NCBI GenBank assembly: GCA_027622595.1
Contig: JAQBZZ010000005.1
Coordinates: 82 to 64,081 of the forward strand
Source: Chloroflexota bacterium
GTDB taxonomy: Bacteria; Chloroflexota; Dehalococcoidia; Lucifugimonadales; UBA2985
Direction of reading: 5' to 3'
Length of the DNA: 64,000 nucleotides
This document shows positions 13,946 to 61,328 of this stretch, in pieces; position 1 is the first letter of the stretch, and each line of letters starts with the position of its first letter. The position numbers were made by a program, and so were the translations under genes. A model generated the notes under the pieces. It had not been told where the DNA came from. It did not search any database and saw only the letters and a program-made list of their open reading frames with translations.

Positions 13946-14087
13946 GTCACCCTGAGCAGAGCGAAGGGTCTGGCAGGGTTGGGGGCTCATCCCTGTAGCA
14001 CATAGTTGGAGGAGCTCCACCGCCAGGTTGCCACGCCCCGATTTCATTGGGGCTCGCTATGACATTGATAGCGACCCTCAGGGACAT
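13946..14087. repeat. diverged family-A-like palindromic element
   Basis: GTCACCCTGAGCAGAGCGAAGGGTCT at the 5' end. Inverted GCGACCCTCAGGGAC / GGGGCTCGCTATGAC at the 3' end. Confidence 0.5.
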
Positions 14088-14170
14088 CACATTAGCCTTG
14101 CCCAGAATGTCCCTCGACTGCTATACTCATCTCGCCTTGATAGATATGACTTCCCGTGGGGCGTCCTACC

Positions 14171-15037
14171 ATGACTAAACGCATCTTCCTAATAGGCCAT
14201 CCCGTCGGCCACTCCGTCTCGCCCGCCTTCCAGCAGGCTGCACTGGATCACTACGCTAAGGATGTGCGATACGAGGCGATGGACGTGGATGCCCTCTCTC
14301 TGTCTCAGGCTGTGTCTAGCCTGCGCGACCCCGATGTGATGGGTGCCAACGTTACCGTGCCACACAAACAGGCGACGGTAACCCTCCTCGATGAACTGAC
14401 GAAAGAAGCTCGCCTCATCGGGGCCGTCAACACCATCGAGAACCGCGACGGAGTCCTGATCGGTCACAACACCGACGCCAAGGGTTTTCTGAAAGCCCTG
14501 AAAGAGGAGGCAGGTTTCGATCCCCAAGGCAAAACGGCCCTTGTTCTGGGGGCCGGAGGGGCTGCGAGGGCAGTTGTCGTGGCGCTGGCAGGCGCAGGGG
14601 CGAAGTCTCTTGTCGTCGCCAACCGCACTCTGGAGCGGGCCGTAGCATTGATCGACAGCCTGCGCTCGAAGTTACCATCTGCCGAGGCCGTAGCCTTGCA
14701 CCCGGACTCACTTCGACCGGTGGCCGCTAGTAGCCAGCTCATCGTCAACTGCACGTCTATGGGCATGAGCGGTGGAGAGGGCCAGGGGGAGACCCCTATG
14801 ACGGCCGACCTCATACCTTCGGAGGCCCTGGTCTGCGACCTGGTCTACAATCCAAGGGAGACTCCGCTTATGAGCGAGGCCGCAAAAGCCGGAGCGCGTG
14901 TACTTGGTGGCCTGCCGATGCTTGTGTATCAGGGGGCTGCCGCCTTTGAGCTATGGACCGGCAAAGAGGCCCCAGTCAAGGTGATGTTCGAGGCTGCCGA
15001 AAAGGCCCTTATGGCCAGACAGCCTGTGGGGAGTTGA
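14171..15037 (+). CDS. aroE: shikimate dehydrogenase
   Basis: SPAFQQAAL, GANVTVPHK and the GAGGAARA Rossmann motif. ATG 14171 preferred over GTG 14156. Confidence 0.9.
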   Translation: MTKRIFLIGHPVGHSVSPAFQQAALDHYAKDVRYEAMDVDALSLSQAVSSLRDPDVMGANVTVPHKQATVTLLDELTKEARLIGAVNTIENRDGVLIGHNTDAKGFLKALKEEAGFDPQGKTALVLGAGGAARAVVVALAGAGAKSLVVANRTLERAVALIDSLRSKLPSAEAVALHPDSLRPVAASSQLIVNCTSMGMSGGEGQGETPMTADLIPSEALVCDLVYNPRETPLMSEAAKAGARVLGGLPMLVYQGAAAFELWTGKEAPVKVMFEAAEKALMARQPVGS

Positions 15038-15087
15038 TGGAGTCGGTTGTTGGCTAGTACCCGGTTGTAAGAAAGGATACCACGGTT

Positions 15088-15172
15088 CTTCGCTCGTATG
15101 GTTCGACAGGCTCACCACGAGCGGAGCGTGTTGATGTTCCGCTCACCATGAGCTTTGTCAGAGGGAGTGAAC
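15088..15172. repeat. family-B repeat pair (inverted units)
   Basis: GGTTCGACAGGCTCACCACGAGCGG followed by CCGCTCACCATGAGCTTTGTCAGAGGG, in the aroE-aroC spacer. Confidence 0.7.
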
Positions 15173-15217
15173 GGAAACAAGGAAATACTTACACAAGAAT
15201 TTGCGAGGAGTTAGTCT

Positions 15218-16468
15218 ATGCTACGCTTTCTAACCGCGGGGGAGTCCCACGGCAAAAACCTCACCGTCATTGTGGAGGGGATTCCCGCGAATCTCCCCAT
15301 CACGGAAGAGTTCATAGAGCGGCACATGGCCCGTCGGCAGGTTGGCTACGGTCGTGGGGGTCGTATGCAGATCGAGAAGGACCGCGCCGAGATACTCGCC
15401 GGCGTCCGACACGGGCTTACGATTGGTTCGCCCATATCTATGCTCGTCGTGAACAGGGACTTCACCACTGGCAAAGGCCCTGACGGCGTGCCCTGGATGG
15501 ATGAGATGAGCGTTGCCCCCTCCGATGTCCCCTTTGAGACCATAACCAGCATACGGCCGGGACATGCCGACACCCCGGGAATCGCCAAGTACATGCAGGA
15601 CGACGCCCGCAACATCCTGGAGCGTTCCAGCGCGCGGGAGAGCGCGGCCAGGGTCGCCGCGGGGGCACTGGCGCAACGGTTCCTTGAGGAGTTCGGCATT
15701 GAGGTGCACGGCCACGTGCTGTGTATCGGAGGCGTACACGCAAAGCCATCGGACAGCGTGGACTGGAACGCGCTGGAGGAATCGCCCTACCATCGTGAGA
15801 ACACCGAAGGCTCCAAGATGGCCGCGGTCCGCTGTGCCGACCCCGAGGCCGCCGAGCGGATGATCGTTGAAATAGACGCCGCGCGGGAGGCGGGCGACAG
15901 CGTGGGCGGCATAATAGAGATCGTTGCCACAGGAGCGCCCATCGGCCTTGGCAGCCATATCCAGTGGGACCGCAAGCTGACCAGTAAGCTGGCGGCTGCG
16001 GTGATGAGTATAAACGCGGTCAAGGGAGTGGAGTTCGGAGCGGGGTTTGCTCAGGCGGACATGCGGGGTTCTCAGGTGCACGATGTCGTCAAGCCATTGG
16101 ATGAGTGGGAGCGGGCCGCGGATGAAAGAATTGTGCGTCCCTGGCCCAGACGTAGCAACAACTCGGGCGGCCTTGAAGGCGGCATGACCACCGGCGAGCC
16201 TCTGGTTGTGAGGGCCATTGTGAAGCCTATTGCGACCATAATGAACGGGTTGGAGACCGTTGACCTGGCCACCGGCGGGTTCGTAGAGCGCGCCCACTTC
16301 GAGCGCAGCGACATCACATTTGTACCAACCTGCGCCGTCATCGGCGAGGCCATGGTCGCCCTGACGCTCGCGGACGCCATGCTTGAGAAGTTCGGCGGCG
16401 ACCACATTGAGGAGACCAAGCGCAACTGGCGCTCCTACATGGCTACCACATTGCCGCGAGGCCTGTAG
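15218..16468 (+). CDS. aroC: chorismate synthase
   Basis: 416 aa. FLTAGESHG, RPGHAD, SARESAARVAAGA, MSINAVKGVEFG. GAGGAG SD. Confidence 0.92.
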   Translation: MLRFLTAGESHGKNLTVIVEGIPANLPITEEFIERHMARRQVGYGRGGRMQIEKDRAEILAGVRHGLTIGSPISMLVVNRDFTTGKGPDGVPWMDEMSVAPSDVPFETITSIRPGHADTPGIAKYMQDDARNILERSSARESAARVAAGALAQRFLEEFGIEVHGHVLCIGGVHAKPSDSVDWNALEESPYHRENTEGSKMAAVRCADPEAAERMIVEIDAAREAGDSVGGIIEIVATGAPIGLGSHIQWDRKLTSKLAAAVMSINAVKGVEFGAGFAQADMRGSQVHDVVKPLDEWERAADERIVRPWPRRSNNSGGLEGGMTTGEPLVVRAIVKPIATIMNGLETVDLATGGFVERAHFERSDITFVPTCAVIGEAMVALTLADAMLEKFGGDHIEETKRNWRSYMATTLPRGL

Positions 16469-16490
16469 ACCTGTAGAGAGAACGTTTGGA

Positions 16491-16952
16491 CTAGTTGGCC
16501 TTCGCTCTTGGCACCAGTTCGTAGCGGATCTCCCAGTCAACGTTCTGATTGAGTACCTCCAGGAAGTGCTCCATCTCTCCCTTGCCCCATAGGACACCGT
16601 TGAACAGGCAGGGGTACAGGCACACTTGGGCGTCTTCATCCAGTCCACCCATGACAGCATCCCGCAGGTCGGCACCCTCCATCTCCGCCCTGTGAAGGTT
16701 GGCGTCCGTCAGAGTGGCGCCCTTGAATCGAGCGCCCCGCAGGTCGGCCCGTGAGAGGTTGGCCTTTGTGAGGTCGGCCCCCTCAAAGTTCACATTGCTA
16801 AGGTTGACACGCAAAAGGGGAGCGCCCCGCAGGTCGGCACCCGACAGGTCGGCTCCGGACATATCTATCTTGGCGTTGGCGTCCTGCTTCCTCAACTCAT
16901 CGAACTCTGCAACGCTGCTGCGCAGGGCGGCGAGATACTGTTCGTTTTCCAT
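16491..16952 (-). CDS. pentapeptide-repeat protein
   Basis: 153 aa. Run of A(D/N)LxG-type repeats (ADLSGADLRGAPLLRVNLSNVNFEGADLTKANLSRADLRGARFKGATL). Confidence 0.85.
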   Translation of the reverse strand: MENEQYLAALRSSVAEFDELRKQDANAKIDMSGADLSGADLRGAPLLRVNLSNVNFEGADLTKANLSRADLRGARFKGATLTDANLHRAEMEGADLRDAVMGGLDEDAQVCLYPCLFNGVLWGKGEMEHFLEVLNQNVDWEIRYELVPRAKAN

Positions 16953-17052
16953 AGGTGAATCCTCCTCTTAAGATGCAAGATGTGAGCATTTTATCATATT
17001 GCACAGGGGTCTTTTGGCCTGCGCGTCAAGGGGCCAGTATAATGGCTGTCTT

Positions 17053-17124
17053 TGTGGGTGCAGGGTGTACCCTGCTTATGGGTGCAGGTCGTGCCCTGCT
17101 TGTGGGTGCAGGATCTACCCTGCT
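17053..17124. repeat. tandem array, 3 x 24 bp, each unit an internal palindrome GCAGG-N6-CCTGC
   Basis: The three units are tgtgggtgcagggtgtaccctgct, tatgggtgcaggtcgtgccctgct and tgtgggtgcaggatctaccctgct, directly adjacent to each other. Confidence 0.85.
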
Positions 17125-17126
17125 GC

Positions 17127-17135
17127 TGATATAAT
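17127..17135 (+). promoter_or_regulatory. extended -10 (TGaTATAAT) upstream of proB
   Basis: TGATATAAT lies 37 nt before the proB ATG, inside the palindrome GCTGATataATCAGC. The -35 position falls in repeat unit 3. Confidence 0.4.
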
Positions 17136-17171
17136 CAGCCCTGAGCCGTAAAGGATTGCTAAAAAATAAAG

Positions 17172-18308
17172 ATGGCTAGTAACACATCAAAAATAGGCCG
17201 CTATCGGCGCATCGTGGTCAAGGCGGGAACAAACGTCCTCACCGGTGGCGGCGACAGCCTCGACCTTGGCCTGATGGCCCGTCTGGTCGAGCAGGTGGCC
17301 GACCTTCACCTGTGGGGCATCGAAGTGCTGCTGGTGAGTTCCGGGGCCATCGCTTCAGGTGCGCAGGTGCTGGATATCGGAGGGCAGAGGGAGGACATCC
17401 CCTCCCGGCAGGCCCTCGCTGCGGTGGGTCAGAGCCGCCTCATGCACACCTACGAGCAGCTTTTTGAGAAACACAGCATCACCGTCGCCCAGGCTTTGCT
17501 TTCCCGTGAAAACATCACGGACCGGGAGGGATACCTCAACGTGAGGAACACGCTGCTGGCCCTGCTGGACTGGAAGGTCATTCCAATCATCAATGAGAAC
17601 GACGTGGTGGCCGTGGAAGAGATAGGGGTTGAGGTCTTTGGCGACAACGACAACCTCTCGGCTATGGTGGCCAACCTTGTGGACGCCGACCTTCTCATCA
17701 TGCTCAGCGACATTGATGGGCTGCACACCGCCGACCCTCACGAGAACCCGGACGCGAAACTCATCCCAAATGTAGAGCGCGTGGACGAGGCCATCGAATC
17801 CCTGGCCGGGGCTAACCACAGCTCAAGGAGCCGGGGCGGCATGCAGGCCAAGCTGGAGGCCATAAAGCTGGCAACGGCCTCCGGCGTCGCGGTGGCGCTG
17901 GTCAATGGCAGGGAGAACCGGGTTGTGCCACGCCTGACGGAAGGCGAATCTGTCGGCACCTTCTTTGCTCCAACCGGCAGCAAGGTGCAGAGCCGCAAGC
18001 GGTGGATGCTCAGTGGCCTGTCTACGCGGGGGCGCATAGTGGTTGATGACGGGGCTGCCGATGCCCTTCGCAGGAACCACGGCAGCCTGCTCCCCGCGGG
18101 GATAAAAGAGGTCGACGGACACTTCAAGCGGGGCGACATCATCCTGGTGGTTGGTTCGAGTGGAGAGCGTGTTGCATGCGGCATCGCCAGCTACGGCTCG
18201 GAGGACGTTGTCGCCATCAAGGGGCTGCGCTCCGACAGGATACGGGACGCCCTTGGCTACCAGTACGGCGAAGAGGTGCTCCACCGCAATAATATGGTAT
18301 TGTTGTAG
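17172..18308 (+). CDS. proB: glutamate 5-kinase with PUA domain
   Basis: 378 aa. RIVVKAGTNVLTG, amino-acid kinase fold, C-terminal PUA (GRIVVDDGAADAL). Confidence 0.93.
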   Translation: MASNTSKIGRYRRIVVKAGTNVLTGGGDSLDLGLMARLVEQVADLHLWGIEVLLVSSGAIASGAQVLDIGGQREDIPSRQALAAVGQSRLMHTYEQLFEKHSITVAQALLSRENITDREGYLNVRNTLLALLDWKVIPIINENDVVAVEEIGVEVFGDNDNLSAMVANLVDADLLIMLSDIDGLHTADPHENPDAKLIPNVERVDEAIESLAGANHSSRSRGGMQAKLEAIKLATASGVAVALVNGRENRVVPRLTEGESVGTFFAPTGSKVQSRKRWMLSGLSTRGRIVVDDGAADALRRNHGSLLPAGIKEVDGHFKRGDIILVVGSSGERVACGIASYGSEDVVAIKGLRSDRIRDALGYQYGEEVLHRNNMVLL

Positions 18309-18316
18309 ATGCGATT

Positions 18317-18385
18317 ATGGATACTAATACCCTCTACTACGGTGACAACCTGCGGATTCTGCGGGACTGCATCTCCAACGAGTGA
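18317..18385 (+). pseudogene. 22-codon stub resembling the N-terminus of an N6/N4 DNA methyltransferase
   Basis: Reads MDTNTLYYGDNLRILRDCISNE-stop. The LYYGDNLxxLR...I.DES(VDL..DPPF) N-termini are recalled from adenine methylases. The stub stops just before the expected DPPF motif. Confidence 0.35.
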
Positions 18386-20079
18386 GTACGATGGCGACGC
18401 GACCAGGCACAATTGAATTTGAGAACGTTGGAATTGGAACTGCTTTGCTTAGGAATCGGCTCAATGTTCCTCCTAACCAAAGAGAGTATTCCTGGGAAGA
18501 AGAACATGTGCAAGATTTGTTTCAAGACCTAGCTGGTGCCATTGACTCTGGCAAGTCCTCATATTTCTTAGATACAATTGTCCTTACCCCTGGATCGGAG
18601 GAAGCATTTGAGGTTGCCGATGGTCAACAAAGACTAGCAACAACAACGATTCTTCTGGCAGTAATTCGCGACTATTTTCAAGACCGGAATGAGAATCTCC
18701 TTGTCCAAGATCTTAATCAGTTCCTGTACACCGTCGTGAGAGAAACGCGTGAGATACAGCCAAGATTGCGCTTGAATATTGATGACAATGAATTCTTCAA
18801 AAATAGGATATTGTCAAAAAGAGGCGATGCTCTAAGACGCAGTGCAAGGCCAACTAAGCCAAGTCACGATAGGATTATAGCCGCGGCGCGGATGGCTGAG
18901 GAACTCATACTGCGAATAATTGCTCCACACAATGACCAGAATCGTATAGAGCGTCTAAATCAGTGGGTTGGCTATTTAGAGAAATCTGCATTAGTAATAG
19001 TTCTCAAAGTGCCCGATGACCTGAATGCATATGTGATGTTTGAGACGCTCAACGATAGGGGTCTTCGTACCTCTCAGGCTGACCTAGCGAAGAACCATCT
19101 CTTTAATTTGGCAGATGATCGCCTAGTTGAAGCCCAACAAAGATGGGCGGCTATGAATGGTGCTTTGGATACTCTTGAAGAAAATGATGTGACAATTACC
19201 TACTTGAGACATTTGTTGATTTCACTGTGGGGACATACGCGAGAACGTGAGGTGTTTGATAAGGTTAAGGAGCACGTTATAGCTAAACAGCATTCAATTG
19301 AGTTTCTAGACGCTCTTGCTAACAATGCAAACGACTATGTAGCAATTCAGACGCCTACCCACTCAAAGTGGAACGACTACGCTCCAAATATCCGAAAACA
19401 TGTCCGCACGATGGCCTTTTTACAGCTAACTCCTCTGCGACCTCTTATGCTGGCCGTAAGTAGTAGCTTCTCTAAACGACAGATGGAACTCGCCTTTCGC
19501 CAATTCGTATGCTGGTCTGTCAGATTTCTTGTGTCTGGTGGAGCAAGAAGTGGGCGTATGGAAGAAGCAGTTGCCAGGGCAGCGCAAGAAGTGAGTAATG
19601 GCAGGATAGATACTGCGCAAAAACTGACCAACCAGCTACAAGACGTTCTACCCACAGACCCTATTTTCGAGGCGAAGTTTGCTACCGAGACAGTGGCAAA
19701 GAATGCTCTTGCGCGTTATTACCTAAGGGCGCTTGAACGAAAACTACAGAATGACCCCTCTCCAGAATGGGTGCCCAACGAGGACACTGTTATCACTCTG
19801 GAACACGTACTGCCTCAGAATCCAAGTGAACAATGGACGGATATCGATCCAGCCTTAATGGCGGCCTATTACAGGCGTATAGGGAATATGGTACTTCTAC
19901 GGGCAGGCCTTAACAATAACATCGGTAATAAGACATTTGCTGAGAAGAAACCAGTCATTGCAGAGTCCACTTTTGTACTAACACAGGAAGTGGCAAAGTA
20001 TGATACCTGGGGGCCAGTAGAGATTGAGGAACGCCAGAAGAAATTGGCCAAGATTGCATTGGAAACTTGGCCCTTGTAA
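18382..20079 (+). CDS. DUF262/DUF1524 (GmrSD-like) nuclease, probable type IV restriction / defence enzyme
   Basis: 565 aa. N-terminal REYSW and DGQQRLATTTILLAV (DUF262). C-terminal TLEHVLPQNP ... GNMVLLRAGLNNNIGNKTFAEKK (DUF1524 His-Me finger). AT-richer than flanks. ATG at 18391 is an alternative start. Confidence 0.8.
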   Translation: MSTMATRPGTIEFENVGIGTALLRNRLNVPPNQREYSWEEEHVQDLFQDLAGAIDSGKSSYFLDTIVLTPGSEEAFEVADGQQRLATTTILLAVIRDYFQDRNENLLVQDLNQFLYTVVRETREIQPRLRLNIDDNEFFKNRILSKRGDALRRSARPTKPSHDRIIAAARMAEELILRIIAPHNDQNRIERLNQWVGYLEKSALVIVLKVPDDLNAYVMFETLNDRGLRTSQADLAKNHLFNLADDRLVEAQQRWAAMNGALDTLEENDVTITYLRHLLISLWGHTREREVFDKVKEHVIAKQHSIEFLDALANNANDYVAIQTPTHSKWNDYAPNIRKHVRTMAFLQLTPLRPLMLAVSSSFSKRQMELAFRQFVCWSVRFLVSGGARSGRMEEAVARAAQEVSNGRIDTAQKLTNQLQDVLPTDPIFEAKFATETVAKNALARYYLRALERKLQNDPSPEWVPNEDTVITLEHVLPQNPSEQWTDIDPALMAAYYRRIGNMVLLRAGLNNNIGNKTFAEKKPVIAESTFVLTQEVAKYDTWGPVEIEERQKKLAKIALETWPL

Positions 20080-20143
20080 TTACCTAAACTTCCTTACGCA
20101 GAATATAAGGTGAAGGGTTTTGTACCTGCAGGAGAAAGCGACC

Positions 20144-21418
20144 ATGACCACAGCGACAACTGACCTGGACGCTAAGGGCAAGGCGGCCCGCGCCGCGGCG
20201 CGGAAACTGGCCCGGCTGTCGTCCAGTGTTAAAGACCAGGCGCTTTTTAACATCGCCGATGCCCTGAAGACCCAAGAGGAAAAAATACTCGCGGCCAACG
20301 CCAAGGACATCCAGGCTGGCAAGGACAGAGGCCTAAGCGAGGCCTTGCTCGACCGCCTGATGCTCAACGCGTCCCGTCTGGAGAGTATGGCAGAGGACGT
20401 GCGTTCCGTGGCCGCCCTGCCTGACCCGATAGGGGAGACGTTCGAACAGCGCATCATGCCAAACGGCCTCCAGGTGGGCCGCCGTCGTGTGCCCCTGGGT
20501 GTCATCGGCGCCATCTACGAGAGCCGTCCCAACGTCACCGTAGATATTTCCGTCCTTTGCCTCAAATCGGGGAATGCCGTCATATTACGGGGTGGCAGCG
20601 AGGCCATCCACTCCAACACCGTGTTGGCCAGGGTCGTGCGGGACTCCATAGCCGGGGCGGGTGTGCCGCAGGACGCGGTGCAGTTCATTGACTCTCCGGA
20701 CCGGGCGCTGGTGGAGCGTATGCTCTCCATGAAAGAGTACATAGACCTGATGATACCCAGGGGCGGTGCCGACCTCATCCGCTACGTTGGCGAAAACGCC
20801 CGTATGCCGGTCATCACAGGAGGTATCGGCGTGTGCCATACCTACGTGGACAAGGACGCAAACGTGGAGAATGCCGTTGCCATCGCCTACAACGCCAAGG
20901 TGCAGCGGCCCACCGTTTGCAACGCCCTTGACACCCTTCTGGTGCACTCGGAGATCGCACCCAGATACCTGCCGGCCATCGCTCAGGAATGGACCAAGGC
21001 TGGAGTGGAGATGCATTGCGACAGCCGCGCTCTGAGCATTCTCGGCCCGTCCGAGGCGTTCAACCTGAAGCCTGCCACCGAAGACGACTGGGGCATGGAG
21101 TTTCTCTCCCTCACCGCCGCGGTGAAGGTTGTGGACTCCCTGGATGAGGCCCTTGAGCACATTGAGCGGTACGGTTCGGGCCACTCGGAGGCTATCATCA
21201 CCGAGAACTACTCCAAGGCCATGCGGTTTCTGGACGACGTGGATGCCGCCGCGGTGTTCGTCAACGCCAGCACACGCTTCACCGACGGAAGCCAGTTTGG
21301 CCTTGGTGCGGAGGTTGCCATCAGCACCAACAAGATGCACGCCCGCGGCCCAATGGGGCTGAGGGAACTGACATCATACAAGTGGACAGTCCTTGGTAAC
21401 GGCCAGGTGCGGAGCTAG
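20144..21418 (+). CDS. proA: gamma-glutamyl phosphate reductase
   Basis: 424 aa from ATG 20144, which has a GGAGA SD; the track start at 20120 is TTG. YESRPNVT and the catalytic-Cys context CNALDTLLVH. Confidence 0.93.
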   Translation: MTTATTDLDAKGKAARAAARKLARLSSSVKDQALFNIADALKTQEEKILAANAKDIQAGKDRGLSEALLDRLMLNASRLESMAEDVRSVAALPDPIGETFEQRIMPNGLQVGRRRVPLGVIGAIYESRPNVTVDISVLCLKSGNAVILRGGSEAIHSNTVLARVVRDSIAGAGVPQDAVQFIDSPDRALVERMLSMKEYIDLMIPRGGADLIRYVGENARMPVITGGIGVCHTYVDKDANVENAVAIAYNAKVQRPTVCNALDTLLVHSEIAPRYLPAIAQEWTKAGVEMHCDSRALSILGPSEAFNLKPATEDDWGMEFLSLTAAVKVVDSLDEALEHIERYGSGHSEAIITENYSKAMRFLDDVDAAAVFVNASTRFTDGSQFGLGAEVAISTNKMHARGPMGLRELTSYKWTVLGNGQVRS

Positions 21419-21458
21419 CGTTACCGGTACAAAAACCTAGAGATGGAGAGTATACAAC

Positions 21459-21773
21459 ATGGCTGACTACGGCTTGGAGCGGGAGTGTCGAACCCCTTAT
21501 TCAGAGGTGTACACTGTCCTTGAGGAGGATGAGCCCATAGGACGTCTGGACATTCACCTGACTCCCGTCGTGATTCACGCCACCCTGTGCATAGATGAGA
21601 GCCTCACGCAGGAGGCTATCCAGGAACTCATCTCGTACATAGACGATGAGGTGGTAGATGTGGTCGGGGTCTCCAGAGACGAGTTCATAATCCACGTCCA
21701 TCAGGGCCATGACGTTGGTGTGTTCAGCAACCACGAGGATTTCGATGGAAACGGGGGCAGGGAAGGGGCGTAG
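21459..21773 (+). CDS. hypothetical acidic protein, 104 aa
   Basis: GGAGAG SD and clean ORF. No family recognised. Confidence 0.55.
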   Translation: MADYGLERECRTPYSEVYTVLEEDEPIGRLDIHLTPVVIHATLCIDESLTQEAIQELISYIDDEVVDVVGVSRDEFIIHVHQGHDVGVFSNHEDFDGNGGREGA

Positions 21774-21784
21774 TGACCGAACCC

Positions 21785-22900
21785 TTATAGCCCCCGGGGC
21801 TGCTCCTCCAGGATCACGCTCAGGGTCTTGGCGTCCTTACCCCTAACTATCGTCACCTCTGTCTCGTGGCCGATATCGTATCCGCGTATCGCCCTCTGAA
21901 GCTGCTTGGTGGTATCAACCTCCACTCCATCGAAAGCGACGATGACATCGCCCGCAAGCATGCCTGCCTGTTCTGCAGGGCTTCCCCGGTCAACGCGAGC
22001 TATCAGGACTCCGCGGCTAACCGATAGGCCTTGCTGAGAAGCGATGATGGGTGTCACGTCCCCCCTGACTCCCACACCCAGCCAGGCGACTATCACCCGT
22101 CCGTGCTCCAGGATGGACTCCACAACGGGGGTCACAGTGAAGGTGCTCACGGCGAACCCGATCCCTTCCCCTCCCTGAGTCTTGGCGGTGTTTATACCAA
22201 CTACCCGGCCTTCCAGGTTGATCAGGGGGCCTCCGCTGTTGCCTGGATTGATGGCCGCATCGGTCTGAATCATGTCGAAGAGAGTAGAGCTCTCGGTGTC
22301 TATGACCCTGTTCAGGGCACCCACAATCCCCAGTGTGACGGTAGGCCCGCCCTCCAGCGCCAGGGCGTTGCCGATGGCTATCACCCAATCTCCCACACTT
22401 AACGTGTCCGGTCCTGCGAACTCCGCCGAGGCATAGTTGCCCTTTGGAATCTTGATGACCGCCAGGTCTGAATAAGGATCGCGTCCCACCAACTCCGCCT
22501 CAAAGGTGCGCTCATCCACAAGGAATACGGTTATCCTGTACGCTCCCTCCACCACGTGGTTGTTGGTGACAATGAGTCCTTCAGAATCGAAGATGACGCC
22601 GGTGCCTGCACTGTCCTGCTCAACCGTTCTACATCCAAAGAAACGGTCACACTGCTCTTTCCGGGCCTGAATTGCGATGGATACCACCGAAGGCTTCACC
22701 TTCGCCACAATTTCTGATACGGACGGTAGAAGGGATCCGTCGGTGTTCGGCGGGGATGTGGTTGATGTGGCAGTTGCAGTGGGGAGAGGTGTGACGGTGG
22801 GGTAGGCTCCCGTGGAACATGCCAGAGCTATTAGGGGCAGTATTCCCGCTGCAAGAACAAGCCACGCGAACTGCTTTTTCAGTTTTTTCATATTTTTCAT
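21785..22900 (-). CDS. htrA: HtrA/DegP-family serine protease with one PDZ domain
   Basis: TNNHVV, DLAVIK and GNSGGPLIN triad contexts. Signal/anchor MKNMKKLKKQFAWLVLAAG. Start 22900 or 22891 preferred over 22951. Confidence 0.88.
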   Translation of the reverse strand: MKNMKKLKKQFAWLVLAAGILPLIALACSTGAYPTVTPLPTATATSTTSPPNTDGSLLPSVSEIVAKVKPSVVSIAIQARKEQCDRFFGCRTVEQDSAGTGVIFDSEGLIVTNNHVVEGAYRITVFLVDERTFEAELVGRDPYSDLAVIKIPKGNYASAEFAGPDTLSVGDWVIAIGNALALEGGPTVTLGIVGALNRVIDTESSTLFDMIQTDAAINPGNSGGPLINLEGRVVGINTAKTQGGEGIGFAVSTFTVTPVVESILEHGRVIVAWLGVGVRGDVTPIIASQQGLSVSRGVLIARVDRGSPAEQAGMLAGDVIVAFDGVEVDTTKQLQRAIRGYDIGHETEVTIVRGKDAKTLSVILEEQPRGL

Positions 22901-23014
22901 AAAAGGTTCGCCTGGAGATGATTCTTTTCCCACTGGGAGGAGAGGCAACATGGCCGCAACAGATGAGAAAGACTTGCTCAGGAGCCCGCGAAAATGGCCT
23001 ACCGTTGCAAGCCC

Positions 23015-23914
23015 TTACTCCCGGCTCACCGGCTGCAGGCTGGCCCTGGCGATTTCCATGATATCCTCCAACTCCCTCTCTTTGGCGGATCGGTATAGGG
23101 CATAGCGGTAGGTTATGAGCGACCCGAAGAGAAGGATGACCGCCGATACGTATACCCACGTTAGTAGTGCCACTATGCTGCCAACGGAGCCATACACAGA
23201 GGAGTACACCGAGTAGTTTGTCACGTACCACACAAATGCGTTCTTGATGACCTCAAAAGCAATTGTGGCGGCGATAGCCCCAGGCAATGCCTCCATCAGC
23301 TTTACCTTTGTGTTTGGGAGAAACCAGTAGATACCAACAAAGACTATGAAGGAAAGTGCTGGCGGAATGAGCGAAGCAAGTCTATCCCAGAGGAGGTCGC
23401 CGTTGACATGGGTCTCCAGGGTTATGAACTCCAGTATCTCCCTGAGGTAAGCAAGGACAGCTGTGGAAGATATGGATATGAGCATCAGGATGGCGGCTCC
23501 CAACATTAGGGAGATGTCTATGAGCCGTTCCTGAAGAAACGGCCTTGGTCTTGTGATACCCCAGGTGGCGTTGACACCCTTTCGTATGGCGCCGAATACG
23601 GCTGTCCCCGCCCATAGAAGACCGACGATACCGGCGGACCCTGCAAAGCTCCTGCTGGTCAGCGTGCCGCTAAGAACATCGCTGACCGTCTTCTTGGAGA
23701 CCGGGGCCTGTTCTGCGACACGCTGGGCAAGGTCTTCAATGGAGTCTGGCCCCAGGAAGAAACTCAGTCCGAATATAATGGCCAGGGCCAGAGGGAATAG
23801 AGAAAAAAGGGCGTAGTAGGATATAGCAGCGGCCAACTGGGGTCCGTTCTTCCCCAAGAAGTCGTTAACAGCCCGGGCCGAGATACCTACAAGTTCAAAA
23901 AGTCCAGCTAGCAA
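23015..23914 (-). CDS. YihY/BrkB-family membrane protein
   Basis: 299 aa, polytopic. AAAISYYALFSLFPLALAI motif. Confidence 0.75.
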   Translation of the reverse strand: MLAGLFELVGISARAVNDFLGKNGPQLAAAISYYALFSLFPLALAIIFGLSFFLGPDSIEDLAQRVAEQAPVSKKTVSDVLSGTLTSRSFAGSAGIVGLLWAGTAVFGAIRKGVNATWGITRPRPFLQERLIDISLMLGAAILMLISISSTAVLAYLREILEFITLETHVNGDLLWDRLASLIPPALSFIVFVGIYWFLPNTKVKLMEALPGAIAATIAFEVIKNAFVWYVTNYSVYSSVYGSVGSIVALLTWVYVSAVILLFGSLITYRYALYRSAKERELEDIMEIARASLQPVSRE

Positions 23915-24152
23915 GTTCAGAGTTCCATGGCATATTGAAGCCAGCCAAAATCCTATGTAATCCTCTCCTAAATGTCAAGTCTTGGTTATGAATGAGACAG
24001 GGCTCAGTCTTATTGCAAACACTGGTGATCCGGACAGGCACATACGAGTATCGGAGCACAACCTCCTATGTGTTCCGCCTTGATTTGGTCTCTAACCCCC
24101 CTTATAATCAACCCGACCCTGACTTGGCAACCATTCTTTGTACAAGGAACAC

Positions 24153-40426: not shown

Positions 40427-40605
40427 AGTCGAATTTGGGTCATGCGGGTACGTGGAGCGGTTCGATAGTCTTCTCGAGATATATTCCTTATTTAAGATTC
40501 AAGAGCGGTATTGCCACGACCAGTGGGCATGGGTGATACTGGTACATTGGAGATGGGACATGCTCATCTCTTCAGAAACAGGTACACACACTTTGGAGGT
40601 GTCTG

Positions 40606-40884
40606 ATGACAGTCCGGCTGATTGTAAACATGGAGGCAGCGGTAGGCAAGCGGGAGGAACTGGCAGCTGAGATGACTTCTCGTTGCGCCGGCGTGCGGGA
40701 GGAGCCGGGTTGTCTGCAATACGAACTATTGCAGAGTACCGAGAGGCCAGACCACTTTGTGCTGATGGAGAAATGGTCTGACCAGGATGCCCTGACCGTC
40801 CACAGCCAGCGCCCCAGGGAAGGCCGTGTGGATATGACTCCGTTGCGCGCGGGTCCTTCAGTGGTGGAGCGGTACACGGAATAG
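40606..40884 (+). CDS. ABM-domain (antibiotic biosynthesis monooxygenase-like) protein
   Basis: 92 aa. EPGCLQYELLQS..DHFVLMEKWSDQDALTVH. Confidence 0.8.
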   Translation: MTVRLIVNMEAAVGKREELAAEMTSRCAGVREEPGCLQYELLQSTERPDHFVLMEKWSDQDALTVHSQRPREGRVDMTPLRAGPSVVERYTE

Positions 40885-40927
40885 TTTTTTGTAATACCAC
40901 GGCCTTAACACGATGGGAGGAATTAAC

Positions 40928-42366: not shown

Positions 42367-42468
42367 GTCATTCTGAGTCCTTCTGAGAAGGGCGAGGAAT
42401 CTAAAGCCTTCGTCTGGACATGGCATATCGCCTTAGATTCTTCGGTCGCTGTGCTCCCTCAGAATGAC
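42367..42468. repeat. family-A palindromic MITE/REP-like element
   Basis: GTCATTCTGAG..GGCGAGGAATCTAA ... TTAGATTCTTCGG..CCTCAGAATGAC. Confidence 0.8.
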
Positions 42469-42730
42469 ACGGGTTTTACCACCTACCATCTGAAAATCCC
42501 ACTCGACTACGGCATGTTCGCGGGCTAGAATAGGGCTGCGTGCAAAACCTGTTAATTGGGGGCAAATGGCATGGTCCACCGTTGGAGCGTGTACTGTGGC
42601 ACAGGGAGATATTGAGGGCGTAGGCTTTTCGAAAACTGATATGGAGGTCTGGAGAGAAGGCCAGGACTCTTGATACTTCCGTAGGAGAGGGCTCTGCGGC
42701 ATAGGAAGATTTTGAAGGCGTAGAGCTGTT

Positions 42731-42832
42731 GTCATTCCGAGGAGCGGAGCGGCGAGGAATCTTAGACAGATGCCTTTAACAAGAATAGTAGGCCCTAGAT
42801 TCCTCACTTCGCTGTACTGTGTTCGGAATGAC
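42731..42832. repeat. family-A palindromic MITE/REP-like element
   Basis: GTCATTCCGAGGAGCGGAGCGGCGAGGAATCTTAG ... CTAGATTCCTCACTTCGCTG..GTTCGGAATGAC. Confidence 0.8.
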
Positions 42833-42941
42833 ATTATGTAAACTTATGTTCATCGCTGAATTCAATGACGTGCGGGCGAATGCAGCCATCGCTGAGAGGA
42901 GCGGAATTGTCTCGAATGAGCTTTCGGATAGGAGGTAAGAG

Positions 42942-50233: not shown

Positions 50234-50325
50234 ACCCTCGCTCTCTCAGCCGTTGACCTCTTGTTGCGTATGGCTTCTGCGTGCAGGCAGCCATCTTGAA
50301 CGACTTCTCCAACTTGTCTTCCATG

Positions 50326-50493
50326 CTACCTGAACTCCACCTCTATCTGACCATCTCGCCAGATGTATACCGACTTCACGATCGTCTGTAAGAGTGCCTT
50401 GGCGTGGGTGATGTCCATGCCCTTGATGTCCTCCAGGAAAGACTTCACCTTCACCGGCACACTCTTGGCCCGGGCTTCTCTGTCCCGCCGTTG
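50326..50493 (-). pseudogene. C-terminal tail resembling a large serine recombinase
   Basis: Hand translation ...RRDREARAKSVPVKVKSFLEDIKGMDITHAKALLQTIVKSVYIWRDGQIEVEFR-stop. Matches the remembered ...LL..I..I.V..DG.IEI.F recombinase C-termini. There is no upstream catalytic domain. Confidence 0.35.
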
Positions 50494-50678
50494 CTCCACA
50501 GCAGCACCTTGCAGAGCCTCGTGTGGTGTAGTCCCCGGTAGGTTGGCAAGGCCGGGTCCTCGTCCAGAGAGACAACCGCCACGTTAAAGGGTACATCGCC
50601 CTTGCGCCGTACCACACGGGTGTTGTGGCATCTGGAGTTACTGAGCGCGCAAATACTCCCTAGAACCGTGTTTTCGAA
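50494..50678 (-). pseudogene. frameshifted fragment of a DUF35 OB-fold paralogue
   Basis: Frame A reads GDVPFNVAVVSLDEDP. It then shifts by one base to LPGTTPHEALQGAAVE. The intact copy has QPFNVAVVMLDEDQG...LTGTPVDKVPVGAAVE. The zinc-ribbon part is missing. Confidence 0.55.
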
Positions 50679-60878: not shown

Positions 60879-60929
60879 ATGCTCAGTGGCGATTTTTAGG
60901 CAAAGCCGCACCCGGCTGGGATTTGCCGG

Positions 60930-61328
60930 TCAACTGTTCATCATCAGCGTGGCGGTACGCTCAAAGTAGTCCGTCATCACCGCGGCCACATCAGCAGAAA
61001 CATCCATGGATTGCAACGCGGAAATCATGTGGACAACCCAGGCGTCCCTCTCTGTCTGGCCGATGGGAAACGGCATATGGCGCTGGCGGAGCCGGGGGTG
61101 GCCCCTGTCAAGTGAGTATTGCGGGGGTCCCCCCCCGTACTGTGCAAGGAACGCGGCCAGATGTGCTTTGCCCGGCTTCAGGTCCTGGGGATAGAGTGGC
61201 CGCAGTACCGGGTCAACCTCTACCAAACGATAGAATTGCTCCACAAGCTCCACAAAGAACGCATTGCCGCCCACTCGTTCGTAAACTGTGGTAACTTCAA
61301 GATTCAACCCAGGGTCATCTTGGGTCAT
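60930..61328 (-). CDS. glbO: group II truncated haemoglobin
   Basis: 132 aa from ATG 61328 with a GAGGAG SD. YERVGGNAFF, RPLYP, GGPPQYS..RGHPRLRQRHMPFPI. Overlaps the MFS stop by 14 nt. Confidence 0.85.
   Translation of the reverse strand: MTQDDPGLNLEVTTVYERVGGNAFFVELVEQFYRLVEVDPVLRPLYPQDLKPGKAHLAAFLAQYGGGPPQYSLDRGHPRLRQRHMPFPIGQTERDAWVVHMISALQSMDVSADVAAVMTDYFERTATLMMNS

What the first reader, a model, noticed from the sequence alone, without database searches (positions are those of the whole stretch)
18309..20143. Defence-type nuclease islet (methyltransferase stub + GmrSD-like DUF262/DUF1524 gene) splitting proB from proA
proB (stop 18308) and proA (ATG 20144) are normally adjacent or overlapping. 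Here they are separated by 1835 bp of visibly AT-richer DNA. The insert begins with a 22-codon stub, MDTNTLYYGDNLRILRDCISNE-stop. This looks like the first residues of an N6/N4 DNA methyltransferase cut just before the DPPF motif. The stub's stop overlaps the start region of a 565-aa protein with an N-terminal DUF262 DGQQR motif and a C-terminal DUF1524 His-Me finger, the architecture of GmrSD/BrxU/SspE-type modification-dependent nucleases. The arrangement suggests an R-M module was replaced or truncated by a type IV enzyme inside an amino-acid biosynthesis operon. The nuclease may be expressed by read-through from proB.
Basis: partly seen in the sequence, partly recalled or inferred. Interest (0 to 1): 0.65.

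Follow-up and report, generated by a model that had tools for sequence, protein, structure and literature searches.

The report
Anti-phage nuclease gene splitting proB–proA
A foreign anti-phage nuclease gene of the already described HEC-06 (GmrSD-like) type sits between the proline genes proB and proA of a Dehalococcoidia bacterium, at a spot where related bacteria repeatedly carry restriction-modification genes; it is a real but fairly ordinary defence islet.

Summary
proB (17172-18308) and proA (20144-21418) are 1835 bp apart. The closest relatives have spacers of 37-101 bp. The insert holds one intact low-GC gene (18391-20079, 562 aa). It matches Pfam GmrSD_N and GmrSD_C. It matches the PADLOC HEC-06 model end to end (E 1.5e-167). 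It keeps the four residues whose mutation abolishes HEC-06 defence. Its nearest solved structures are DndI, then SspE, then BrxU. It lacks the phosphorothioate-sensing tyrosine of DndI, and the window has no dnd or ssp genes.

The 22-codon stub is a relic of a DNA methyltransferase N-terminus. All 28 database hits are methyltransferase N-termini. It is 67% identical to full-length methyltransferases found at the same junction in other Dehalococcoidia. The stub has host-like codon composition, and relative L004 carries it in front of a different cassette. It therefore probably predates the nuclease.

Among 100 non-redundant related loci, 24 carry inserts of 250 bp or more at this junction. Most are restriction-modification genes, and 29 of 32 large ORFs point the same way as proBA. 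Co-transcription with proBA is inferred, not shown. Verdict: a new member of a known kind, sitting in a restriction-modification hotspot I did not find described. Interest is moderate to low.

The parts
17172..18308 (+). proB (glutamate 5-kinase). This is the upstream core gene of the operon and the left flank of the hotspot.
   Evidence: TIGR01027 E 3.9e-126; Pfam AA_kinase plus PUA. It is 75-87% identical to proB of L088, L001, L091, L002, L003 and L004.
18309..18316 (+). Eight nucleotides of native spacer between the proB stop and the stub ATG.
   Evidence: ATGCGATT aligns with ATACGATG in L001 and ATGCGATG in L003.
18317..18385 (+). 22-codon stub ORF (MDTNTLYYGDNLRILRDCISNE-stop). It is a relic of the N-terminus of an N4/N6 (beta-class) DNA methyltransferase, cut before the (D/S)PP(Y/F) motif. 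The last two or three codons and the TGA may belong to the 5' leader of the incoming gene.
   Evidence: 28 of 28 tblastn hits are N-termini of annotated methyltransferases. 14/21 identity to L019 methyltransferase residues 4-24, E 2e-8. L004 carries the same stub at the same position. GC3 is 17/22, host-like, against 239/562 in the nuclease gene, Fisher p 0.0017.
18391..20079 (+). HEC-06-type GmrSD-like defence nuclease gene (562 aa). The N-terminal part is a DUF262/ParB-like NTPase (residues about 24-238 counted from the ATG at 18391; 27-241 of the 565-aa ORF), followed by a helical linker and a C-terminal DUF1524 His-Me finger nuclease (about 421-555; 424-558 of the 565-aa ORF).
   Evidence: Pfam PF03235 7.1e-29 and PF07510 6.3e-26. 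PADLOC HEC-06 PDLC04157 1.5e-167, profile positions 6-556 of 558. PDB sequence search: DndI 9JFL 2.6e-23. AlphaFold2 model pLDDT 86.9. Foldseek: DndI 4.7e-19, SspE 2.2e-13, BrxU 1.4e-5. pN/pS 0.22 against the 73%-identical relative.
18619..18633 (+). DGQQR motif (residues 77-81), the NTP-hydrolysis motif of the DUF262 domain.
   Evidence: Invariant in 23 family members; position. Q79A and R80A abolish HEC-06 defence (bioRxiv 10.1101/2024.01.29.577857).
19801..19806 (+). E471-H472 of the His-Me/HNH nuclease motif (LEHVLP). N499 and N508 lie downstream.
   Evidence: H472, N499 and N508 are invariant and E471 nearly invariant in the family alignment. E471A and H472A abolish HEC-06 defence.
20080..20143 (+). 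3' spacer. It contains the right junction (somewhere in 20080-20127) and native proA leader with the Shine-Dalgarno AGGAG at 20130-20134. No terminator-like hairpin is present.
   Evidence: GCAGGAGAAA (20128-20137) is shared with L091 at the same distance from the proA ATG. No terminator-like site was found in 18309-20143.
20144..21418 (+). proA (glutamate-5-semialdehyde dehydrogenase). This is the downstream core gene and the right flank of the hotspot.
   Evidence: NF001221 E 6.6e-185 and TIGR00407 1.9e-159.
17014..17043 (+). Best sigma-70-like promoter match upstream of proB (TTGGCC-18-TATAAT). It is the candidate promoter for a proB-stub-nuclease-proA transcript.
   Evidence: 10 of 12 consensus matches. 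This is a consensus match only; the total number of matches in the region does not exceed the shuffled control.

Best explanation
What it is. The insert is a horizontally acquired single-gene anti-phage defence islet. It encodes a HEC-06-type GmrSD-like enzyme. The N-terminal DUF262 (ParB-like) domain hydrolyses NTPs through its DGQQR motif. The C-terminal DUF1524 His-Me finger (E471-H472...N499...N508) cuts DNA. By analogy with the tested HEC-06 protein, both activities would be needed to restrict phage.

Where it sits. The gene lies in the proB-proA intergenic spacer of a Dehalococcoidia (Chloroflexota) genome. Across the class, this junction is a recurrent landing and exchange site for restriction-modification (R-M) cassettes.

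Inferred history. An ancestor of this clade carried an N4/N6 DNA methyltransferase gene that started 8-9 nt after the proB stop. That gene was truncated to about 20 codons. Downstream of the relic, different lineages now carry different cargo:
- the window carries the HEC-06 nuclease;
- L004 carries another low-GC methyltransferase;
- L001 and L003 carry almost nothing (61 bp);
- L002 carries a NotI-like type II R-M pair that removed the relic as well.

Expression. The nuclease gene points the same way as proBA. It has no recognisable promoter or terminator of its own. It starts 5 nt after the stub's stop codon. It is therefore most likely transcribed as part of a proB-stub-nuclease-proA message. 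proA is translated from its own retained Shine-Dalgarno sequence.

Shown versus inferred. Shown here: gene identity, motif integrity, foreign composition, absence of the gene from relatives, the hotspot, and the stub's methyltransferase ancestry. Inferred: anti-phage activity in this host, which DNA the enzyme discriminates, co-transcription, and the order of events.
For: Identity:
- Pfam GmrSD_N and GmrSD_C both hit.
- PADLOC HEC-06 matches full length at 1.5e-167.
- The only solved folds matching at E below 1e-3 are DndI, SspE and BrxU, using a model with pLDDT 86.9.
- D77-R81 and H472 are invariant and E471 nearly invariant across 23 homologues. They fall at the same residue numbers as the HEC-06 loss-of-function mutants Q79A, R80A, E471A and H472A.
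- pN/pS is 0.22 against the 73%-identical relative.

Foreign origin and recent arrival:
- GC3 is 0.43 against 0.77 and 0.78 in the flanking genes.
- The closest relatives L088, L001, L003 and L091 have spacers of 37-101 bp.
- No relative among about 100 loci carries the gene here. The only tblastn hit to it in those loci is a 23%-identical DUF262-type gene on the opposite strand upstream of proB in L055.
- Both junctions were assembled independently with 0 differences.

Hotspot:
- 24 of 100 non-redundant loci have inserts of 250 bp or more, and 14 have 1.5 kb or more.
- The cargo includes NotI-, ThaI- and HinP1I-like restriction endonucleases, N6_N4 and D12 methyltransferases, an HNH protein and DUF3800 proteins.
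- 29 of 32 ORFs of 150 aa or more are co-oriented with proBA.

Stub:
- See for the methyltransferase similarity.
- L004 has the same stub at the same position, followed by a sharp GC3 drop from 17/20 to 97/170.
- L001 and L003 keep its first 5-7 codons.
- L004 and the window lie on opposite sides of the clade root.

Expression:
- No promoter-like or terminator-like site lies at either junction or in the 3' spacer.
- AGGAG lies 9 nt before the proA ATG.

Solitary gene:
- No dndB-E, sspB-D, BREX or DNA methyltransferase hits appear among 52 other ORFs of the window.
Against: - No expression or activity data exist for this gene. No RNA run holds the region.
- The tested HEC-06 protein comes from another organism, and I did not compare it with this protein directly. 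The PADLOC HMM match is the link between them.
- The papers I read do not say which DNA feature HEC-06 discriminates.
- Shared ancestry of the stub is not proven. Nucleotide identity between the window and L004 over 57 nt is 41/57, which is not significantly above the third-position identity of proB (p 0.058). The LYYGDNL motif plus a shared GC-rich codon bias could make independently acquired methyltransferase 5' ends look alike.
- The consensus promoter scan does not cover non-sigma-70 promoters, so the gene could have its own promoter.
- The hotspot counts come from related lineages and are not independent events.
Confidence: 0.8

Rival explanations
1. The enzyme is the restriction half of a phosphorothioate (PT) based system, like DndI or SspE. 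It would read PT marks written by dnd or ssp genes located elsewhere in the genome.
For: DndI (9JFL) is the closest solved structure by sequence (2.6e-23) and by fold (4.7e-19). PADLOC 'Orf5' and SspE models also hit. The first ORF of the window gives weak SspA/DndA hits (about 1e-13).
Against: The PT-sensing Tyr25 of DndI, which is conserved in SspE (PMC11662687), aligns with Asn in this protein (VPPNQRE). N29 is invariant in all 23 family members. No dndB-E or sspB-D hit appears in the 64-kb window. The SspA/DndA hit is a generic class-V aminotransferase (Pfam Aminotran_5). Close relatives are also solitary genes among housekeeping genes. Identity to DndI is only 21%.
Confidence: 0.05
2. The enzyme is a classical type IV, modification-dependent restriction enzyme like GmrSD or BrxU. 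It would cut phage DNA that carries modified cytosines (5mC, 5hmC or glucosyl-hmC). Its arrival would then be incompatible with a resident methyltransferase. This rival concerns specificity only and is compatible with the best explanation.
For: The domain architecture and catalytic motifs are the same. BrxU is a significant fold match (1.4e-5). A PADLOC type IV mREase_IV model hits the C-terminal part (1.4e-12). The methyltransferase at the site is dead, as a conflict between a methyltransferase and a methyl-directed nuclease would predict.
Against: HEC-06 is reported as distinct from BrxU and GmrSD in sequence, domain geometry and phage range, and its substrate is not stated. BrxU is the weakest of the three fold matches, at 13% identity. 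L004 carries the stub in front of a different, apparently intact methyltransferase, so the truncation probably predates the nuclease.
Confidence: 0.3
3. The 22-codon stub is a chance ORF, or a native small leader ORF of the proB-proA spacer, and not a methyltransferase relic.
For: Its ATG and first 4-5 codons are shared with the 18-codon ORF of the 'empty' spacers of L001 and L003 (MNTNVPHDWVLTKQRLMP, MNTNLIHDLVLTEQKLML). The TGA of those ORFs overlaps the proA ATG. No Pfam family hits the stub. Each database hit has E of 0.1 or more, and the PDB search returns only chance barstar matches.
Against: 28 of 28 best hits in two annotated collections are N-termini of DNA methyltransferases. The stub shows 67% identity, E 2e-8, to the N-terminus of the methyltransferase that sits at the same junction in L019, L031 and other loci. 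L004 has the same LYYGDNL stub. The closest relative, L088, has no small ORF in its spacer, so the ORF is not a conserved leader.
Confidence: 0.05
4. The gene is a decaying passenger with no current function, tolerated because it does not block proA expression.
For: No expression data exist. The gene has no detected promoter of its own. The hotspot also holds decayed genes, such as methyltransferase fragments of 124 aa in L126 and 64 aa in L134.
Against: The reading frame is intact over 562 codons. All catalytic residues are kept. pN/pS is 0.22 against the nearest relative. The HMM and homologue coverage is full length. The structure model is confident.
Confidence: 0.08
5. The proB-insert-proA arrangement is a chimeric assembly that joins DNA of two organisms.
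For: There is a sharp GC change at both ends, and the source is a metagenome with only about 7x depth.
Against: Separately assembled contigs of a public run cross both junctions with 0 mismatches and equal depth. The junctions fall within a native spacer whose two halves match relatives. Other relatives show analogous inserts at the same place.
Confidence: 0.02

Closest known systems
HEC-06 (Hma-embedded candidate 06), a single-gene GmrSD-like antiviral defence (Payne et al., bioRxiv 10.1101/2024.01.29.577857; PADLOC models PDLC04154-04157)
   Same: The HMM match is full length (E 1.5e-167; protein residues 10-564 of the 565-aa ORF against profile positions 6-556 of 558). The architecture is the same: DUF262, linker, DUF1524. 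DGQQR has Q79/R80 and the nuclease motif has E471/H472 at the same residue numbers as the loss-of-function mutants. It is a single-gene system.
   Different: It is not embedded in an Hma, BREX or type I R-M system. It sits alone inside a proline-biosynthesis operon of a Chloroflexota genome. Position 46 is Asp here, invariant in its subfamily, where the tested HEC-06 has Ser46; S46A had no phenotype. Activity was not tested here.
DndI (PDB 9JFL), the phosphorothioate-sensing DUF262-HNH nuclease of Salmonella Cerro 87 (PMC11662687)
   Same: It is the best solved-structure match by sequence (2.6e-23) and by fold (4.7e-19, TM about 0.5). It has the same DGQQR NTPase motif and the same loop-type HNH motif region.
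   Different: Identity is 21%. The PT-sensing Tyr25 is Asn here and throughout the subfamily. There are no neighbouring dnd genes.
SspE (PDB 6JIV, 7DRR/7DRS) and BrxU (PDB 7P9K); also GmrSD of E. coli CT596 (from the literature cited, not compared directly here)
   Same: The two-domain plan and the catalytic motifs are the same. Fold matches are significant (SspE 2.2e-13, BrxU 1.4e-5).
   Different: Identity is 13-16%. SspE is about 770 aa and is coupled to sspABCD. BrxU is embedded in BREX and carries an extra nucleotide-binding motif that HEC-06 is reported to lack. Neither context is present here.
Allelic substitution and operon insertion of restriction-modification units (Furuta, Abe and Kobayashi 2010, PMC2853133)
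   Same: Different R-M types, including type IV, replace one another at one chromosomal locus between conserved flanks. Deletions leave short ORF remnants. A type II R-M system inserted into an operon-like cluster is on record.
   Different: Here the locus is the proB-proA spacer of Dehalococcoidia. No long target duplication, inverted repeats, integrase or transposase accompany the insert. My literature searches found no description of this particular hotspot, but they were limited.

Membership tests
GmrSD-like nucleases (DUF262 + DUF1524) | N-terminal DUF262 / GmrSD_N (ParB-like NTPase) domain | tested here: met
   PF03235 E 7.1e-29, 101.8 bits against a cut-off of 33.2, residues 27-241 of the 565-aa ORF.
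GmrSD-like nucleases (DUF262 + DUF1524) | C-terminal DUF1524 / GmrSD_C His-Me finger nuclease domain | tested here: met
   PF07510 E 6.3e-26, 91.4 bits against a cut-off of 23, residues 424-558 of the 565-aa ORF.
GmrSD-like nucleases (DUF262 + DUF1524) | DGQQR NTP-hydrolysis motif intact | tested here: met
   D77-G-Q-Q-R81, invariant in 23 homologues.
GmrSD-like nucleases (DUF262 + DUF1524) | (D/E)H...N...N/H nuclease motif intact | tested here: met
   E471-H472, N499 and N508. H472, N499 and N508 are invariant and E471 is nearly invariant.
GmrSD-like nucleases (DUF262 + DUF1524) | Overall fold resembles solved family members | tested here: met
   AlphaFold2 model pLDDT 86.9. The only PDB matches at E below 1e-3 are DndI, SspE and BrxU.
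HEC-06 (PADLOC) | Full-length match to a HEC-06 profile | tested here: met
   PDLC04157 E 1.5e-167, 556.6 bits, profile positions 6-556 of 558. PDLC04155 E 7.1e-149.
HEC-06 (PADLOC) | Residues shown to be essential for defence (Q79, R80, E471, H472) | tested here: met
   The same residues occur at the same numbers when counted from the ATG at 18391.
HEC-06 (PADLOC) | Confers phage resistance as a single gene | not testable with these tools
   This needs cloning and plaque assays.
HEC-06 (PADLOC) | Embedded in an Hma, BREX or type I R-M system (the context of discovery, not a strict requirement) | tested here: not met
   The gene is flanked by proB and proA. No helicase, methylase or ATPase defence genes occur among 52 other window ORFs.
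DndI / SspE phosphorothioate-sensing nucleases | PT-sensing tyrosine in the N-terminal hydrophobic patch (DndI Y25) | tested here: not met
   It aligns with Asn (VPPNQRE). N29 is invariant in the subfamily.
DndI / SspE phosphorothioate-sensing nucleases | Genetic linkage to dndBCDE or sspABCD modification genes | tested here: not met
   There are no DndB-E or SspB-D hits in the 64-kb window. The only hit is a generic class-V aminotransferase at about 1e-13. The rest of the genome was not available.
BrxU | Embedded in a BREX locus | tested here: not met
   No Brx or Pgl family appears in the PADLOC scan of the window.
BrxU | Close sequence or fold similarity to BrxU | tested here: not met
   BrxU is absent from the PDB sequence hits. 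The fold match is the weakest of the three (E 1.4e-5, 13% identity).
N4/N6 (beta-class) DNA methyltransferase (concerns the stub) | N-terminal LYxGD(N/C/S)L...L region that precedes the catalytic motif | tested here: met
   14/21 identity to L019 methyltransferase residues 4-24. 28 of 28 database hits are methyltransferase N-termini.
N4/N6 (beta-class) DNA methyltransferase (concerns the stub) | Catalytic (D/S)PP(Y/F) motif and AdoMet-binding domain | tested here: not met
   The ORF stops at codon 23. There is no Pfam hit. It is a relic, not an enzyme.
Transposon / integron cassette / integrative element | Target-site duplication, terminal inverted repeats, attC-like site, or an integrase or transposase gene | tested here: not met
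   No flanking direct or inverted repeats beyond chance-length matches. The insert holds one gene only. 5' and 3' flanks are not conserved with other loci that carry relatives.

The most novel reading that the evidence does not exclude
In this reading, the proB|proA junction of Dehalococcoidia is a dedicated, operon-embedded exchange site for defence cassettes. The cassettes would lack their own promoters and would be driven by the transcript of an essential proline-biosynthesis operon. That would explain why 29 of 32 large ORFs are co-oriented with proBA.

The retained methyltransferase 5' stub would not be a passive scar. It would be a reused module: a translation-coupling leader starting 8 nt after the proB stop and ending at the start of whatever cargo follows. 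It could also act as a short homology anchor at which new cargo is joined. Both known breakpoints fall at stub codon 20-22, directly in front of the incoming gene's start codon.
Probability: 0.15. Interest if true: 0.55.

Novelty: new member of a known kind. Interest (0 to 1): 0.35.

Why it matters
The gene extends an experimentally validated but mechanistically open defence family, HEC-06, into Chloroflexota. Members of this phylum, as sampled here, are uncultured environmental genomes, and I am not aware of tested phage-defence systems from them.

The locus also gives a clean natural example of defence-gene turnover at single-site resolution. Within one narrow clade the same 60-bp spacer of an amino-acid operon is found in several states. 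It is empty in some genomes. In others it holds type II R-M pairs, or lone and decayed methyltransferases. In the window it holds a type IV-like nuclease.

If the operon-embedded, promoter-less mode of expression holds up, it would show how streamlined genomes host defence genes without dedicated regulation.

For annotation work, it warns that a 'split' proBA operon in these genomes marks a variable defence site.

Tried and rejected
One call failed on the E-value limit and one on the minimum query length of 40 aa. Neither was counted.
- A PDB search with the stub returned only chance barstar matches (E 1 or more). tblastn against annotated phage and plasmid records was used instead.
- Pfam and PADLOC do not hit the stub. 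The Pfam N6_N4_Mtase match on the L019 methyltransferase starts at residue 27, after the region the stub covers.
- Rfam has no match in 14000-24000. No leader or riboswitch explains the spacer.
- No target-site duplication or terminal repeats were found. The 5' and 3' flanks of relatives' genes are not conserved beyond the Shine-Dalgarno region, so I dropped the idea of a discrete mobile element with defined ends.
- I considered that the 18-codon small ORF of the L001 and L003 spacers is a conserved coupling leader. I rejected it as unproven. The closest relative L088 lacks it, and an open frame of 18-22 codons is not unlikely by chance.
- I tested whether the stub is under selection. Identity between the window and L004 is 41/57, not significantly above neutral expectation (p 0.058), so I make no claim.
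- No RNA-seq run holds the region, so co-transcription could not be tested.
- No close relative of the nuclease was found in viral contigs. The best identity in annotated phages is 27% and in plasmids 39%. No vector was identified.
- The meaning of the PADLOC model name 'Orf5' could not be resolved from the papers searched.


Full report
**1. Observation**

- proB is the ORF 17172-18308 (TIGR01027, E 3.9e-126).
- proA begins at the ATG at 20144 and ends at 21418 (NF001221, E 6.6e-185).
- The 1835 bp between them have GC 0.43-0.50, against about 0.62 on both sides.
- Third-position GC is 0.43 in the large ORF and 0.77 and 0.78 in proB and proA.
- No other ORF of 200 aa or more in the 64-kb window has GC3 below 0.55.

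The arrangement is not a chimeric assembly. In a public aquatic-metagenome run, separately assembled contigs cover 17000-18615 and 18613-20658. They show no differences and equal depth, 7.4 and 7.2.

**2. The large gene**

The protein matches Pfam GmrSD_N (7.1e-29) and GmrSD_C (6.3e-26). In PADLOC it matches HEC-06 models over their full length (PDLC04157, E 1.5e-167). It matches SspE and a type IV model only weakly.

Homologues begin M-TRPSTIEFE. The start is therefore most likely the ATG at 18391, giving 562 aa, and not the GTG at 18382.

Counted from that ATG, DGQQR is at residues 77-81 and the nuclease motif E-H at 471-472. These are the residue numbers of the HEC-06 mutants Q79A, R80A, E471A and H472A, which abolish phage defence in E. 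coli (bioRxiv 10.1101/2024.01.29.577857). In an alignment of 23 family members at 51-73% identity, D77-R81, H472, N499 and N508 are invariant and E471 is nearly invariant.

Against its nearest relative, pN/pS is 0.22, with synonymous sites saturated. An AlphaFold2 model has mean pLDDT 86.9. Its only PDB matches below E 1e-3 are DndI (4.7e-19), SspE (2.2e-13) and BrxU (1.4e-5). This agrees with the sequence search, where DndI scores 2.6e-23.

**3. Which branch of the family**

DndI and SspE read phosphorothioate through a tyrosine, Y25 in DndI (PMC11662687). In the HMMER alignment that position is Asn here (VPPNQRE). N29 is invariant in the subfamily.

A PADLOC and Pfam scan of 52 other ORFs of the window finds housekeeping genes. 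It finds no dndB-E, no sspB-D, no BREX genes and no DNA methyltransferase.

The closest relatives are also solitary genes. They sit just downstream of, and co-oriented with, housekeeping genes: FakA/Dak2-type, hemB and deoC. They are low-GC (0.46-0.50) in hosts of GC 0.59-0.64. One relative sits directly behind a type II R-M pair.

I therefore file the protein as a HEC-06-type GmrSD-like nuclease. I do not file it as DndI, SspE or BrxU. The papers I read do not say which DNA feature HEC-06 discriminates.

**4. The stub**

The stub ORF 18317-18385 reads MDTNTLYYGDNLRILRDCISNE. No profile library hits so short a piece, and the big protein database refuses queries under 40 aa.

In tblastn searches of annotated collections, all 24 phage hits and all 4 plasmid hits are N-termini of DNA methyltransferases. 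Each single hit is weak, with E between 0.1 and 8. Against the full-length 540-aa N6_N4 methyltransferase that sits between proB and proA in L019, BLASTP gives 14/21 identities to residues 4-24 (E 2e-8). So the stub is a methyltransferase N-terminus cut before the (D/S)PP(Y/F) motif.

The stub is not part of the incoming DNA.
- Its GC3 is 17/22, like proB, and unlike the nuclease gene (239/562; Fisher p 0.0017).
- The 8 nt before it and its first codons align with the spacers of L001 and L003.
- L004 (proB 75% identical in the MAFFT alignment; 77% by tblastn) has MNTSVLYYGDNLNVLREQIK starting 9 nt after its proB stop.
- In L004 the stub runs in frame into a different methyltransferase with its own LYQGDSL...DPPY region. 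GC3 drops there from 17/20 to 97/170.

In the proB tree, L004 and the window lie on opposite sides of the clade root. The simplest history is that the clade's ancestor had a methyltransferase gene right after proB. That gene was truncated to about 20 codons, and the cargo behind it has since been exchanged. The evidence for common descent is positional. Nucleotide identity of the two stubs (41/57) is not significantly above neutral expectation.

**5. The site is a hotspot**

Scans of species-representative genomes and of JGI metagenomes with proB gave 160 loci, nearly all Dehalococcoidia or Chloroflexota.

Among 100 non-redundant loci with proB followed by proA:

| Spacer length | Loci |
|---|---|
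| under 250 bp | 76 |
| 250-500 bp | 7 |
| 500-1500 bp | 3 |
| 1.5-5 kb | 14 |

Within the window's own clade every genome differs:
- 37 nt in L088;
- 61 nt in L001 and L003;
- 101 nt in L091;
- a NotI-like endonuclease plus a D12 methyltransferase in L002;
- the stub plus a methyltransferase in L004;
- the stub plus the nuclease in the window.

In a more distant clade (proB about 55% identical) the site holds:
- a 540-aa methyltransferase preceded by a small zinc-ribbon ORF and followed by variable partners;
- ThaI-like and HinP1I-like endonucleases with methyltransferases;
- an HNH protein and DUF3800 proteins;
- unknown proteins;
- decayed methyltransferase fragments of 124 and 64 aa.

Of 32 insert ORFs of 150 aa or more, 29 point the same way as proBA. 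These counts are not independent events. The window's nuclease is the only GmrSD-type occupant of the junction seen.

**6. How the insert got there and how it is expressed**

No target duplication, terminal repeats, integrase or transposase accompany the insert. Similarity to other loci that carry relatives starts only about 15 nt before the ATG, in the Shine-Dalgarno region, and ends at the stop codon.

No close relative was found in viral contigs, annotated phages or plasmids. The mechanism of entry is therefore unknown. Exchange between related genomes by recombination in the conserved proB and proA flanks, after rare illegitimate joins, is the ordinary model for such allelic substitutions (Furuta et al. 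2010, PMC2853133).

The consensus scan finds no terminator-like site inside the insert. The only plus-strand promoter-like match there is a weak 9-of-12 site inside the nuclease gene. The best promoter-like site of the region lies upstream of proB at 17014-17043. proA keeps AGGAG 9 nt before its ATG, within a 10-mer shared with L091. I infer one proB-stub-nuclease-proA transcript. No RNA run was available to test this.

**7. Comparison with what is known, and verdict**

The gene is a new member of the HEC-06 family. The turnover of R-M and type IV genes at one locus, including short ORF remnants and insertion into operon-like clusters, is a described phenomenon.

My literature searches did not turn up this particular site. 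I found no description of the proB-proA spacer as a class-wide, co-oriented R-M hotspot in Dehalococcoidia, nor of the shared methyltransferase stub with two breakpoints at codon 20-22 directly in front of the incoming start codon. This is a modest addition, not a new kind of system.

Noticed in passing
window 17055-17124: A 24-nt unit (TGGGTGCAGGnnnnnCCCTGCTTA) is repeated 2.9 times in tandem. Each unit holds a GCAGG/CCTGC hairpin. The array lies between the best promoter-like site (17014-17043) and the proB ATG. There are three matches in the window against 0.39 expected by chance. A single copy sits at the same relative place upstream of proB in L001 (and its duplicate contig L090) and in L088. 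It could be a regulatory or protein-binding element of the proBA leader. There is no Rfam match.
   Followed up: partly
L001 7138-7198 and L003 7138-7198: The 61-bp 'empty' proB-proA spacers hold an 18-codon ORF (MNTNVPHDWVLTKQRLMP / MNTNLIHDLVLTEQKLML). It starts 8 nt after the proB stop, and its TGA overlaps the proA ATG (ATGA). Its first 5-7 codons match the methyltransferase stub. The closest relative, L088, lacks it.
   Followed up: partly
L125 7575-9518: A 151-aa ORF begins with a methyltransferase N-terminus (MRETDVDTLRTNVLYYGDSL) and continues as an HNH endonuclease (PF01844, 2.8e-10). An intact 492-aa methyltransferase with its own MQTNVLYYGDNL start follows directly. This looks like an HNH gene inserted into the 5' end of the methyltransferase gene, with duplication of that end.
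   Followed up: partly
L019 7272-7517, L031 7213-7449, L125 7208-7444, L134 1174-1410, L145 7197-7433, L037 1467-1703, L044 4013-4249: A conserved 78-81-aa cysteine-rich (zinc-ribbon-like) ORF lies between proB and the 540-aa methyltransferase cassette in a distant Dehalococcoidia clade. It could be a controller or regulator of that cassette. Its only Pfam hit is below threshold.
   Followed up: no
L126 2758-3132 and L134 2167-2361: Truncated copies (124 aa and 64 aa) of the 540-aa methyltransferase sit at the same junction, each followed by an intact partner ORF of 332-338 aa and unknown function. Methyltransferase decay at this hotspot is therefore recurrent.
   Followed up: no
L081 5001-6710, L082 6001-7878, L085 5001-6749: The closest relatives of the nuclease are also low-GC (0.46-0.50) single genes in hosts of GC 0.59-0.64. 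Each lies 37-215 nt downstream of, and co-oriented with, a housekeeping gene (FakA/Dak2-type, hemB, deoC). This subfamily seems to spread as a bare single-gene islet.
   Followed up: partly
P0003 (L082 6001-7878): This 625-aa homologue contains an exact internal tandem duplication of about 60 residues (THLIISKWGHVRERAVFEVV...KWNDYHPH). It is either a real duplication or a long-read assembly artefact.
   Followed up: no
window 16491-16952 (- strand): The gene just upstream of the proB leader, on the opposite strand, reads as a pentapeptide-repeat protein (ADLSGADLRGAPLLRVNLSNVNFEGADLTKANLSRADLRGARFKGATL...). This was judged from the translation only and not confirmed by a per-protein family table.
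   Followed up: no
window 40499-40900, 42433-42834, 50246-50617, 60923-61294: Four short ORFs (123-133 aa) have GC3 of 0.42-0.48 in a window where genes typically have 0.58-0.78. They could be further small foreign islets or non-coding AT-rich stretches.
   Followed up: no
L055 3895-5661 (- strand): A distant DUF262/DUF1524-type gene, 23% identical to the window protein, lies just upstream of proB on the opposite strand in another Dehalococcoidia genome.
   Followed up: no
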